Below, piece after piece: positions 5,985-6,530 of a stretch of 63,263 nucleotides of DNA; positions within the stretch are counted from its first letter, which is position 1, and the number at the start of each line of letters is the position of its first letter. The translations under genes were made by a program, and so were the position numbers. Location of the stretch: the NCBI GenBank assembly GCA_964513275.1, contig CAZELN010000001.1:406-63668 (forward strand), given 5' to 3'. This DNA comes from an uncultured Gammaproteobacteria bacterium (GTDB lineage: Bacteria > Patescibacteriota > Patescibacteriia > UBA9934 > GWF2-40-263). The notes beneath the pieces were generated by a model, which did not search any database, had not been told where the DNA came from, and saw nothing but the letters and a program-made list of their open reading frames with translations.

Positions 5985-6094
5985 GATTCGCCGGGCGAAT
6001 CATCGAGTGTCCGTAAGACGGGAAAACACCTGCTCGGCAACCTGCTTGACGATTTTACTTACGACCTTCACGGTCGATGTAGTCATTGTCGAAG

Positions 6095-6212
6095 CAACTT
6101 GTCTGACGAATGGGACAGTGCCACTGGCGTCGTCGTTTCTGTCAGACTCCCTGTCGTGTGAACTCGAACTTGACCTTGGTTAATGAGGCGAATGCACGAC
6201 CCATGAGCGACG
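6095..6212 (+). repeat. module 1 of the paralogous RNA-like repeat
   Basis: Blocks CAACTTGTCTGACGA (6095-6109), ACTCCCTGTCGTG (6146-6158) and GCACGACCCATGAGCGACG (6194-6212), separated by 36 and 35 nt. Confidence 0.8.
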
Positions 6213-6411
6213 TTGCTGACCATGTTCTCCAGATGAGCGAGCGACTGTTGCTCTCCTGCTTGACGAAAGACGAGGTGACCTCACGGTCGTAACTGGGTGT
6301 GTCGAGCTCCCATCGGGCGGACAACCAGTTGTCGAAGGACGACGCGTTACTTGCCCGATCTCCCGCTGCGCGATCATCCCTTTGTCGAAAGTCGAGGGCG
6401 CTGGTGCGCAG

Positions 6412-6530
6412 CAACCTGTCTGACGAGGTTCGCAATGTCTCCGGACGAGGAACACGTTGTCAAACTCCCTGTCGTGCGAGCCAGCACGTGACGAAAGTCT
6501 AAGACGACCTTGCACGACCCCTGAGCGACG
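6412..6530 (+). repeat. module 2 of the paralogous RNA-like repeat
   Basis: Blocks CAACCTGTCTGACGA (6412-6426), ACTCCCTGTCGTG (6464-6476) and GCACGACCCCTGAGCGACG (6512-6530), separated by 37 and 35 nt. The intervening sequence is unrelated to module 1. Confidence 0.8.

What the first reader, a model, noticed from the sequence alone, without database searches (positions are those of the whole stretch)
6041..6530. Two paralogous ~118-nt modules: identical scaffold blocks, unrelated intervening segments of near-equal length
Module 1 (6095-6212) and module 2 (6412-6530) share three blocks. Block A is CAAC(T/C)TGTCTGACGA, 14/15 identical. Block B is ACTCCCTGTCGTG, 13/13 identical. Block C is GCACGACCC(A/C)TGAGCGACG, 18/19 identical. 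The spacers between blocks are 36 vs 37 nt and 35 vs 35 nt, and they share essentially no sequence. GTCGTG in block B can pair with CACGAC in block C in both copies, enclosing the second variable segment. A further upstream layer is also duplicated: CCTGCTTGACGA-N10-GACC(T)TCACGGTCG at 6041-6076 and 6255-6289, and TTGTCGAAG at 6086, 6329 and 6392. A conserved scaffold with hypervariable inserts of fixed length is what programmable guide RNAs look like. Decaying duplications drift uniformly, and protein repeats behave differently: there is no open frame, and a 1-nt indel shifts the frame between blocks.
Basis: seen in the sequence. Interest (0 to 1): 0.8.

Follow-up and report, generated by a model that had tools for sequence, protein, structure and literature searches.

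The report
Guide-RNA array of a TIGR-Tas system
The two "modules" are part of an 11-unit array of small guide RNAs (a stem-loop TIGR array) next to its RNA-guided DNA-binding protein TasR in a Candidatus Uhrbacteria genome; it is real and probably functional, but this kind of system was described in 2025-2026.

Summary
The repeated blocks are real and far beyond chance.

- **Array.** Positions 5990-6569 (+) tile into 11 units of about 48 nt, separated by 4-5 nt pyrimidine-rich linkers.
- **Unit.** Each unit is a 7-nt 5' arm, GA, a 9-nt spacer A, UG, a short hairpin, CGA, a 9-nt spacer B, U, and a 7-nt 3' arm.
Blocks A, B and C are arms of neighbouring units: U3, U4 and the 5' arm of U5, repeated as U9, U10 and the 5' arm of U11. 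Each "variable segment" is spacer, hairpin, spacer.
- **Transcription signals.** A conserved promoter (5956-5984) precedes the array and an intrinsic terminator (6572-6597) follows it.
- **Protein.** The gene downstream (6767-8281) passes NCBIfam's TIGR-Tas model. Its only PDB sequence hit and its best fold hit are TIGR-TasR (9MTY).
- **Relatives.** Homologues in Patescibacteria (CPR) bacteria carry the same units on the same strand. The terminal stem and the inner hairpin covary; the spacers do not pair with each other and are unrelated between units.

This is a stem-loop TIGR array with a CPR-clade TasR. The TasR is probably nuclease-dead (Arg at the first RuvC catalytic position), so it likely acts as an RNA-guided DNA binder or repressor. 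It is a new member of a known kind. No target was found.

Extras: the locus sits at a fixed site between gyrB and secE in seven loci, and the units use seven stem types in a quasi-cyclic order.

The parts
5956..5984 (+). Promoter of the array: TTGACC (5956-5961), 17-nt spacer, TAGAAA (5979-5984). The predicted start lies about at the first base of unit U1.
   Evidence: Both hexamers are invariant in the alignment of the window with L001, L002 and L004, each just upstream of the first unit. The consensus scan did not list it because its -10 hexamer ends in A. That it acts as a promoter is inferred.
5990..6569 (+). Stem-loop TIGR array: 11 tiled tigRNA units with 4-5 nt pyrimidine-rich linkers (AACCU, AACUU, UCCCU, CCAU, UCCU, UCCC, CUCCC, AACCU, UCCCU, CCCU).
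   Evidence: The exact tiling was checked against the sequence. A covariance model built from 54 units recovers U1-U10 at these coordinates on the + strand at 10.6-42.9 bits. The minus strand scores at most 9.2 bits, and nothing else in the 63 kb is significant.
5990..6038 (+). U1: GCCGGGC GA | AUCAUCGAG | UGUCCGUAAGACGG | GAAAACACC | U GCUCGGC
   Evidence: Model score 28.1 bits; this unit was not in the training set. The predicted fold has the terminal stem.
6044..6095 (+). U2: GCUUGAC GA | UUUUACUUA | CGACCUUCACGGUCGA | UGUAGUCAU | U GUCGAAGC (one bulged G in the 3' arm).
   Evidence: terminal stem plus inner hairpin in the MFE fold, z = -3.7. Model score 10.6 bits.
6101..6147 (+). U3: GUCUGAC GA | AUGGGACAG | UGCCACUGGCGU | CGUCGUUUC | U GUCAGAC.
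   Evidence: Model score 30.8 bits; not in the training set.
6153..6200 (+). U4: GUCGUGU GA | ACUCGAACU | UGACCUUGGUUAA | UGAGGCGAA | U GCACGAC.
   Evidence: Model score 14.2 bits.
6205..6253 (+). U5: GAGCGAC GU | UGCUGACCA | UGUUCUCCAGAUGA | GCGAGCGAC | U GUUGCUC. The 5' arm is the end of block C, copy 1.
   Evidence: Model score 14.9 bits.
6258..6307 (+). U6: GCUUGAC GA | AAGACGAGG | UGACCUCACGGUCGU | AACUGGGUG | U GUCGAGC.
   Evidence: Model score 26.7 bits; not in the training set.
6312..6359 (+). U7: AUCGGGC GG | ACAACCAGU | UGUCGAAGGACGA | CGCGUUACU | U GCCCGAU
   Evidence: Model score 42.9 bits.
6365..6412 (+). U8: GCUGCGC GA | UCAUCCCUU | UGUCGAAAGUCGA | GGGCGCUGG | U GCGCAGC
   Evidence: Model score 41.8 bits.
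6418..6465 (+). U9: GUCUGAC GA | GGUUCGCAA | UGUCUCCGGACGA | GGAACACGU | U GUCAAAC (one C-A mismatch in the stem). The 5' arm is block A, copy 2.
   Evidence: Model score 36.4 bits.
6471..6518 (+). U10: GUCGUGC GA | GCCAGCACG | UGACGAAAGUCUA | AGACGACCU | U GCACGAC. The arms are blocks B and C, copy 2.
   Evidence: The MFE fold is exactly terminal stem plus inner hairpin, z = -3.5. Model score 40.4 bits.
6523..6569 (+). U11: degenerate last unit. GAGCGAC GA | GUCGAGCCG | UGCAAUCGCGG | UGGCCCCCC | U GUUGGUUC, with a weak stem.
   Evidence: Model score only 2.2 bits, and the fold is no better than shuffles. Faure et al. report truncated or degenerate end units followed by a terminator for TIGR arrays.
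6572..6597 (+). Intrinsic terminator that closes the array transcript.
   Evidence: 8-bp stem with 5 G-C pairs, followed by a T-run.
6679..6706 (+). Promoter of tasR: TTGACT, 16 nt, extended -10 TGcTAGGGT. A conserved leader (GCGTTGCC) follows.
   Evidence: The motifs are invariant in the alignment of five loci. That this acts as a promoter is inferred.
6767..8281 (+). tasR: 504-aa TIGR-associated protein. It has a RuvC-like N-terminal domain with Arg at the first catalytic position, a coiled coil, and a Nop-like C-terminal domain.
   Evidence: NCBIfam NF052498 TIGR_Tas_endo scores 128 bits against a cut-off of 100. PDB sequence searches hit only 9MTY TasR: E 2.6e-6 for the single sequence and 3e-15 for the profile. 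The AF2 model has pLDDT 90. The best fold hit is 9MTY at E 2.4e-9, followed by the IS621 and ISCro4 recombinases. The start codon at 6767 is supported by the alignment of homologous loci.
8289..8306 (+). Terminator-like hairpin after tasR, before secE.

Best explanation
The region is a stem-loop TIGR (tandem interspaced guide RNA) array belonging to the adjacent tasR gene.

**Shown here**
- One promoter-to-terminator stretch (about 5990-6597, + strand) holds 11 head-to-tail units.
- Each unit has a 7-bp terminal stem whose innermost C-G pair belongs to box C (CGA) and box D (UG). It carries two unpaired 9-nt spacers, separated by a second box D'/box C' pair that closes a small hairpin.
- The neighbouring protein is a TasR.
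- Stems and boxes are conserved or covary, while spacers vary freely.
- The same arrangement recurs around homologues across Patescibacteria.

**Inferred from published TIGR-Tas work**
- The primary transcript is cut in the pyrimidine-rich linkers into roughly 48-nt tigRNAs.
- A TasR dimer binds each tigRNA through the box C/D nucleotides.
- Spacer A pairs with one DNA strand and spacer B with the other strand of an adjoining half-site, which gives an 18-bp target with no PAM.

**Inferred about activity**
The first RuvC catalytic position is Arg (IGIRHR, at least 90% conserved in the family), as reported for CsTasR. The complex therefore most likely binds DNA without cutting it and blocks transcription.

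They are two passes through a higher-order pattern of stem types (...e, f, a...). Selection keeps the stems while the spacers have diverged completely.
For: - **Protein.** TIGR_Tas_endo scores 128 bits against a cut-off of 100. 9MTY TasR is the only PDB sequence hit and the top fold hit.
- **Array.** Eleven units tile exactly.
- **Pairing.** In 54 units of 48 nt from 7 loci, 97% of cells are paired. The inner hairpin was not used for detection, yet it is 95.7% paired with compensatory changes: UA 36, CG 7, AU 6, GC 2.
- **Internal boxes.** The internal UG and CG positions are at least 90% conserved without having been selected for.
- **Spacers behave as guides.** Spacer A does not pair with spacer B: 40.3% against 38.0% in shuffles. 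Spacers of same-stem units are no more alike than chance.
- **Model search.** The covariance model finds U1-U10 on the + strand only and nothing else in the 63 kb.
- **Relatives.** Units are enriched on the tas strand, upstream and downstream of homologues, in most of the 80 Patescibacteria loci compared with the minus strand and with shuffles.
- **Transcription signals.** There is a conserved promoter and a terminator.
- **Match to the literature.** The published description fits: two 8-12 nt spacers flanked by box C/D motifs, palindromic stems of variable sequence, a hairpin between the spacers in the CPR TasR clade, 9+9 nt recognition, and dead RuvC with R8 in CsTasR. [quoted passage not shown]
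- **Domain insertions.** The AF2 model has an insertion of about 78 aa between strands 32-36 and 115-119. There is also an insertion of about 83 aa relative to TaTasR at residues 301-383. Both resemble the RuvC and CTD insertions described for CsTasR.
Against: - No expression or processing data exist for this locus.
- No target was found in the 63-kb window, in the homologous loci themselves, or in viral contigs for U7 in both geometries.
- The published processing motif is CUU at the stem base. Here the linkers are mostly CCU or CCC, and only one is CUU.
- Equating R9 with the catalytic Asp rests on motif position and the predicted strand, not on a residue-level structural alignment. The KDxDA motif is retained (D165 invariant), so residual nuclease activity is not excluded.
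- The terminal-stem statistics are inflated, because the units were detected by their stem pairing.
Confidence: 0.9

Rival explanations
1. It is the same TIGR array, but TasR is an active nuclease. The system would then work as a defence or anti-plasmid system that cuts foreign DNA, rather than as a repressor.
For: Dual-repeat TasR and TasH cleave DNA and can drive plasmid loss. The KDxDA motif of the RuvC fold is retained, with D165 invariant. No host target was found.
Against: The first catalytic position is Arg in 24 of 25 aligned family members that cover it, and Gln in the other one. The CPR TasR clade is reported as catalytically dead, and CsTasR showed no cleavage but did repress. The locus is fixed between core genes in seven loci, which is atypical for a defence island.
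Confidence: 0.12
2. It is an IS110-family mobile element whose non-coding RNA is a bridge RNA (seekRNA), with loops that pair with the element's ends and with its target.
For: There are weak Pfam hits to DEDD_Tnp_IS110 and Transposase_20. Many homologues are annotated 'transposase'. IS621 and ISCro4 recombinases are the second-best fold hits. The gene has foreign-looking GC content, 0.65 against 0.51.
Against: All IS110 models score below their cut-offs: 16.8 against 29, 18.4 against 21.3, and 19.8 against 180. The TIGR-Tas model passes. The RNA is 11 tandem units of 48 nt, not one two-loop RNA of about 180 nt. The locus lies at the same site, gyrB...secE-nusG-rplK-rplA, in seven loci whose TasR proteins are only 57-78% identical. 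No spacer matches flanking sequence. The first catalytic Asp is replaced.
Confidence: 0.03
3. It is a non-functional decaying tandem duplication, or a generic repetitive extragenic palindrome cluster.
For: Arrays do grow by segmental duplication. L002 has two units with nearly identical spacers.
Against: Divergence is not uniform: arms and boxes are 75-100% identical between same-stem units, while spacers are at chance. There are compensatory changes in both helices. The units show strand bias and association with tas across 80 loci. The promoter and terminator are conserved.
Confidence: 0.02

Closest known systems
Stem-loop TIGR arrays of the CPR (Patescibacteria) TasR clade, e.g. Candidatus Staskawiczbacteria CsTasR (Xu et al. 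2026, bioRxiv 10.64898/2026.09.09.750476; Faure et al. 2025, PMC12045711)
   Same: - The units are tandem: palindromic terminal stem, box C, 9-10 nt spacer, box D, short hairpin, box C', spacer, box D'.
- Stem sequences differ between units within one array.
- The array is on the tas strand and a terminator follows it.
- TasR is about 500 aa, with a large insertion in the RuvC domain, an insertion in the CTD, and Arg at the first catalytic position.
- The host is a CPR bacterium.
   Different: - Box C is CGA here, against CUU in PateTasR and CCA in ParTasR.
- The linkers are CCU/CCC-rich rather than the reported CUU.
- All units lie upstream of tasR. None is downstream or inside the gene.
- I could not compare the sequence with CsTasR directly, because it is not in the PDB copy available here.
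- I did not find the seven-type stem alphabet in quasi-cyclic order, or the fixed gyrB/secE location, mentioned in the parts of those papers that I read.
Dual-repeat TIGR-Tas (TaTasR, SpTasH, ParTasR; 36-nt tigRNA)
   Same: [quoted passage not shown] The effector has a Nop-domain fold, and 9MTY is the best PDB match. A terminator follows the array.
   Different: Here there are no constant edge and loop repeats. Instead each unit has its own 7-bp stem and a hairpin loop, and units are about 48 nt, not 36 nt. [quoted passage not shown] RuvC is probably inactive.
IS110/IS1111 bridge RNA (seekRNA) with IS621-type recombinase
   Same: The protein fold is homologous (RuvC-like domain, coiled coil, Nop-like RNA-binding domain). 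The guide logic is similar, with two short segments read from opposite DNA strands.
   Different: This is not a mobile element. It has many tandem guides instead of one RNA with two loops, no donor or target pairing, and it fails the IS110 model thresholds.
Archaeal/eukaryotic box C/D sRNAs with Nop5/Nop56/58
   Same: The layout is terminal stem, box C, guide, box D', loop, box C', guide, box D, bound by a Nop-domain dimer.
   Different: The boxes are 2-3 nt rather than RUGAUGA/CUGA. The published targets of Tas proteins are DNA, not RNA. No fibrillarin or L7Ae gene was seen in the immediate gene neighbourhood (gyrB, IS630 transposase, tasR, secE, nusG, rplK, rplA); the rest of the window was not searched for them.
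CRISPR arrays
   Same: Both are transcribed arrays of short variable guides between structured constant parts, processed into single guides.
   Different: There are no direct repeats of constant sequence. Each unit has two split spacers of 9 nt. No cas gene lies in the immediate neighbourhood. No adaptation machinery is known.

Membership tests
TIGR-Tas (stem-loop type) | An adjacent gene encodes a Tas protein (the Nop-domain family associated with TIGR arrays). | tested here: met
   NF052498 TIGR_Tas_endo scores 128 bits against a cut-off of 100. The only PDB sequence hit is 9MTY TasR, at E 3e-15 with the profile. The top Foldseek hit is 9MTY at E 2.4e-9.
TIGR-Tas (stem-loop type) | [quoted passage not shown] | tested here: met
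   There are 11 units with 9+9 nt spacers. The 5' box is CGA in 8 of 11 units, the 3' box UG in 11 of 11, and the internal UG in 10 of 11. In 54 units from 7 loci the internal U19, G20, C29 and G30 are at least 90% conserved.
TIGR-Tas (stem-loop type) | The unit ends are variable in sequence but consistently palindromic, forming a terminal stem. | tested here: met
   Ten of 11 units have 7-bp stems, and each of the six variable pairs shows 3-6 pair types across the 54 aligned units. Caveat: the units in that alignment were selected by stem pairing. The model built from them still finds untrained units U1, U3 and U6.
TIGR-Tas (stem-loop type) | A loop or hairpin lies between the two spacers (a hairpin in the CPR TasR clade). 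| tested here: met
   The helix 20-22/27-29 is 95.7% paired with compensatory changes, and it was not used for detection.
TIGR-Tas (stem-loop type) | Spacers vary while the scaffold is constrained, and the spacers are single-stranded. | tested here: met
   No spacer column reaches 50% consensus. Spacer A with spacer B is 40.3% paired, against 38.0% in shuffles. Spacers of same-stem units are identical at 0-4 of 9 positions.
TIGR-Tas (stem-loop type) | The array lies on the tas strand, next to tas, and a rho-independent terminator follows it. | tested here: met
   The same holds in homologous loci.
TIGR-Tas (stem-loop type) | The array is transcribed and processed into single tigRNAs bound by Tas. 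| not testable with these tools
   Only a conserved promoter and a terminator bear on this. Small-RNA sequencing or a pull-down is needed.
TIGR-Tas (stem-loop type) | Tandem-spacer recognition of DNA: spacer A on one strand and spacer B on the other. | tested here: inconclusive
   No composite target with up to 2 mismatches exists in the window. Hits with 3 mismatches are at the level of mispaired controls. None was found in the units' own loci, and none in viral contigs for U7. The rest of the genome was not available.
CPR dead-RuvC TasR clade (CsTasR-like) | The canonical RuvC catalytic residues are substituted. | tested here: inconclusive
   IGIRHR lies at the end of predicted strand 1, with R9 at least 90% conserved, like R8 in CsTasR. 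The equivalence is by motif position, not by a residue-level superposition. KDxDA is retained.
IS110 family transposase with bridge RNA | The protein passes the IS110 family models, and the element is mobile with defined ends. | tested here: not met
   Pfam scores are 16.8 against 29 and 18.4 against 21.3, and NCBIfam scores 19.8 against 180. The chromosomal position is the same in seven loci.
IS110 family transposase with bridge RNA | A single RNA of about 150-250 nt has two internal loops that pair with donor ends and with the target. | tested here: not met
   The RNA is 11 tandem 48-nt units. No match of spacers to flanking DNA was found.
Rfam families | A match to any curated RNA family. 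| tested here: not met
   Only sub-threshold hits to SorX and sR32 appeared in 5000-9000, both well below their gathering scores.

The most novel reading that the evidence does not exclude
In this Uhrbacteria lineage the TIGR-Tas locus may be a vertically inherited chromosomal regulator, not a mobile or viral system. On this reading its arrays are built from a seven-stem cassette (a-b-c-d-e-f-g) that is duplicated and pruned, while the 9+9 nt spacers inside fixed scaffolds are replaced completely. If so, comparing orthologous arrays at this fixed locus could show how TIGR spacers are renewed, which the field lists as an open question. It could also show which host genes a natural multi-guide repressor controls.
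Probability: 0.25. Interest if true: 0.6.

Novelty: new member of a known kind. Interest (0 to 1): 0.35.

Why it matters
- **A clean natural example.** It shows a stem-loop TIGR array together with its own promoter, terminator and effector, inside a long chromosomal contig of a CPR bacterium. Most described TIGR loci sit on short metagenomic contigs.
- **Support for the first-stage method.** It shows that reading raw sequence can pick out guide-RNA arrays that repeat finders built for direct repeats miss.
- **Material for open questions.** The fixed position between gyrB and secE-nusG in seven related loci, with array sizes ranging from about 5 to about 30 units and no shared spacers noticed, gives a natural series. 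That series could be used to study how spacers turn over and what the natural targets are.
- **Limits.** It does not reveal a new kind of system.

Tried and rejected
- **Rfam scan of 5000-9000.** Nothing reached threshold.
- **Folding the whole 611-nt region.** The global MFE mixes neighbouring units and misleads. Unit-wise folds and comparative counts were used instead.
- **Bridge-RNA idea.** Rejected on model thresholds, synteny and RNA architecture.
- **Target search in the window.** All 11 units were tried in both possible geometries (rcA+B and B+rcA), with gaps of 0-2 and up to 4 mismatches. Hits were at the level of mispaired A/B controls.
- **Self-targeting.** For 91 units from the window and the fetched loci I searched within their own loci. 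The only hit overlaps the unit itself.
- **Viral contigs.** Exact 18-mers for U7 in both geometries gave 0 hits. By my own estimate an 18-mer would give chance hits in collections of that size, and the authors of the field say the same about false positives.
- **Extended hairpin idea.** The idea that the spacers form one extended hairpin was rejected.
- **Strain variants.** Near-identical strains that might show spacer turnover all carried the same array with one SNP, so they tell nothing.
- **Targeting geometry.** It could not be taken from the text of the papers.
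Full report
**1. Observation**

- Block C with up to two mismatches occurs exactly twice in the 63 kb, against 0.00 expected from shuffles.
- The gaps of 36/37 nt and 35/35 nt are right.
- One detail is off. TTGTCGAAG is exact at 6086 and 6329 only. 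The third copy is TTGTCGAAA at 6382, and that 9-mer is not enriched in the window as a whole.

**2. Context**

The genes on the + strand, in order:
- gyrB, 2278-4332
- an IS630-family transposase, 4866-5909
- a gene-free stretch of about 850 nt
- a 504-aa ORF, 6767-8281
- secE, nusG, rplK and rplA

Rfam has nothing for the gene-free stretch. Pfam gives the ORF only sub-threshold IS110 hits. NCBIfam's model NF052498, 'TIGR-Tas system RNA-guided endonuclease', scores 128 bits against a cut-off of 100.

The only PDB sequence hit is 9MTY, the TIGR-TasR structure, at E 2.6e-6 for the single sequence and 3e-15 for a family profile. An AlphaFold2 model with mean pLDDT 90 matches 9MTY best (E 2.4e-9, TM 0.60 on the target). 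IS621 and ISCro4 bridge recombinases come next, and nothing else is significant.

Relatives number 673 at E up to 0.001. Those that carry an organism name are Patescibacteria (Uhrbacteria, Andersenbacteria, Parcubacteria and others), and many are annotated 'transposase' or 'hypothetical'. The identical protein is MBI4591978.1 of a Candidatus Uhrbacteria bacterium MAG, GCA_016209265.1.

**3. What the literature says TIGR arrays look like**

Faure et al. 2025 (PMC12045711) describe two kinds.
- Dual-repeat arrays give 36-nt tigRNAs.
[quoted passage not shown] Their unit ends are variable but palindromic, and the middle is variable.

Xu et al. 2026 (bioRxiv 10.64898/2026.09.09.750476) add several points for a CPR clade:
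- There is a hairpin between the spacers.
- Recognition uses 9+9 nt.
- RuvC is inactive (R8 and V126 in CsTasR).
- The system acts as an RNA-guided repressor.

A yeast preprint gives box C as CCA and box D as UG for ParTasR.

**4. Anatomy of the window's RNA region**

Reading the orthologous upstream regions showed the unit, and a script confirmed an exact tiling. There are eleven units from 5990 to 6569. Each unit has these parts, in order:
- a 7-nt 5' arm ending in C
- GA
- 9 nt (spacer A)
- UG
- a hairpin of about 8 nt
- CGA
- 9 nt (spacer B)
- U
- a 7-nt 3' arm starting with G

The units are joined by 4-5 nt pyrimidine-rich linkers.

- Block A is a linker plus the 5' arm of U3 and of U9. 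Its partner, UGUCAGAC, sits at 6140-6147.
- Block B is a linker plus the 5' arm of U4 and of U10.
- Block C is the 3' arm of U4 and U10, a linker, and the 5' arm of U5 and U11.
- The 'upstream layer' is U2 and U6.
- The three TTGTCGAA(G/A) copies play different roles. One is a 3' arm; the other two are inner hairpins.

A TTGACC-N17-TAGAAA promoter lies just upstream of U1, and both hexamers are invariant in four loci. An intrinsic terminator follows U11. tasR has its own conserved promoter and leader.

**5. Tests of the structure**

- Unit-wise folding gives the terminal stem in nine of eleven units. U9 pairs in a shifted register and U11 is degenerate. The inner hairpin appears in most units.
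- I aligned, without gaps, 54 units of exactly 48 nt from the window and six related loci. The two helices are 97% paired.
- The terminal stem was used for detection, so it is biased. The inner hairpin was not, and it is 95.7% paired with compensatory changes. Slid controls fall to 18-43% paired.
- The internal UG and CG positions are at least 90% conserved.
- The spacers do not pair with each other: 40.3% against 38.0% in shuffles.
- A covariance model from these units finds U1-U10 at my coordinates on the + strand, at 10.6-42.9 bits. This includes six units that were not in the training set (U1-U6).
- The same intervals on the minus strand score at most 9.2 bits, and nothing else in the 63 kb is significant.
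- A simple detector run on 80 Patescibacteria loci holding homologues found such units clustered upstream and downstream of the gene on its strand. They were far more frequent there than on the other strand or in shuffles.

**6. Why the 'modules' look paralogous**

The arms come from a small alphabet shared across the Uhrbacteria loci:
- a: GAGUGAC
- b: GCUCGAC
- c: AUCGGGC
- d: GCUGCGC
- e: GUCUGAC
- f: GUCGUGC
- g: GCCGAGC

They follow each other in a quasi-cyclic order. A step of +1 occurs in 36 of 91 transitions, against 13.8 +/- 3.4 in within-array permutations. Two caveats apply: I chose the order after looking at the data, and the arrays share ancestry.

By the classifier, which missed U2 and U11, the window reads g. 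e f a b c d e f; by my parse U2 is b-like and U11 a-like.

Between same-stem units, arms plus boxes are 75-100% identical, while spacers share 0-4 of 9 positions, which is chance. L002 holds a recent duplicate with nearly identical spacers, so arrays do grow by duplication. The stems are then kept while the spacers diverge or are replaced.

**7. Evolutionary setting**

The order gyrB, array, tasR, secE-nusG-rplK-rplA is kept in six related loci (L002-L006 and L009). L001 ends just after tasR and shows only gyrB-array-tasR; L089 shows tasR followed by secE-nusG-rplK-rplA.
- TasR is 57-78% identical to the window's protein in these loci, while GyrB is 78-93% and NusG 86-97% identical.
- Array size ranges from about 5 units (L089) to about 30 (L001, L009).
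- I noticed no spacer shared with the window's array. This was not tested systematically.

So the locus is a long-standing chromosomal resident here, not a recent insertion. Even so, tasR keeps a much higher GC content and GC3 than its neighbours in the loci checked in frame. I cannot explain that.

**8. Mechanism**

Shown here are the architecture, the conservation pattern, the identity of the protein family, the strand, and the association across genomes.

Inferred from published TIGR-Tas work:
- The transcript is cut in the linkers.
- A TasR dimer is loaded through box C/D.
- Recognition is of 18 bp, with spacer A on one strand and spacer B on the other.

Inferred here: the nuclease is inactive. 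R9 sits in IGIRHR at the end of predicted strand 1 and is never Asp in the 25 aligned relatives that cover the position. An insertion of about 78 aa in RuvC and one of about 83 aa in the CTD resemble CsTasR. The likely output is therefore RNA-guided binding and repression.

Targets remain unknown. The authors of the field also state that natural targets mostly cannot be assigned and that spacer acquisition is not understood.

**9. Comparison and verdict**

All testable defining features of a stem-loop TIGR-Tas system are met. The IS110 bridge-RNA reading fails its tests.

The differences from published examples are minor: box C is CGA, the linkers are CCU/CCC rather than CUU, and all units lie upstream of tasR.

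This is a new member of a known kind.

Interest is modest (0.35). It rests mainly on the fixed chromosomal locus and the ordered stem alphabet, which could help with the open questions of spacer turnover and natural function.

Noticed in passing
window 6767-8281; L001, L002, L004-L006 at 4001-~5500: tasR has GC 0.65 and GC3 0.87, while the adjacent gyrB (0.53 / 0.60) and nusG (0.51 / 0.69) are much lower. The same contrast holds in the syntenic Uhrbacteria loci, even though the locus looks vertically inherited. Unexplained.
   Followed up: partly
window 5990-6569; arrays in L001, L002, L004, L005, L006, L009, L089: Terminal stems come from about seven sequence types shared between genomes, and they occur in a quasi-cyclic order a-b-c-d-e-f-g. 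A +1 step occurs in 36 of 91 transitions, against 13.8 +/- 3.4 in permutations. This suggests a multi-unit cassette that is duplicated and pruned. Caveats: the order was defined post hoc, and the arrays share ancestry.
   Followed up: partly
window 2278-10384; L002-L006, L009, L089: The TIGR-Tas locus sits at the same place, between gyrB and secE-nusG-rplK-rplA, in the related Uhrbacteria-like loci. Array length ranges from about 5 to about 30 units, and I noticed no spacer shared with the window.
   Followed up: partly
window 4866-5909: An IS630-family transposase gene (NF033545 at 181 bits; GC about 0.44-0.47) lies between gyrB and the array promoter. L001 and L002 have no such gene at that place. 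The ends of the element were not mapped.
   Followed up: no
window 6124, 6148, 6361-6362; L084-L088: Other assemblies of the same organism (GCA_016209265.1 and four Logan assemblies of SRR121134xx runs) end inside the array at these positions. Assemblers presumably break on the repeated arms. Across these copies only one SNP was seen, 6520 C>T in a linker.
   Followed up: yes
window 6679-6766: The tasR promoter (TTGACT-N16-TGcTAGGGT) and a 5' leader with an invariant GCGTTGCC, followed by a GGGATTCCCC-like segment, are conserved in five loci. A regulatory role for the leader was not examined.
   Followed up: no
L002 ~2950-3010 and ~3420-3480; also ~2650 and ~3480: There is a recent duplication within the array. 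Two b-type units have nearly identical spacers (AGGGCGCGU/GCAAUGGCG and AUGGCGCGU/GCAAUGGAG), and a second repeated segment lies next to them.
   Followed up: no
window 6180-6668 (-) and L001 2457-3035 (-): Minus-strand ORFs of 162 and 192 aa overlap the arrays, and gene callers call them in some assemblies. They have no Pfam hit on record and are most likely artefacts of the repeats.
   Followed up: no
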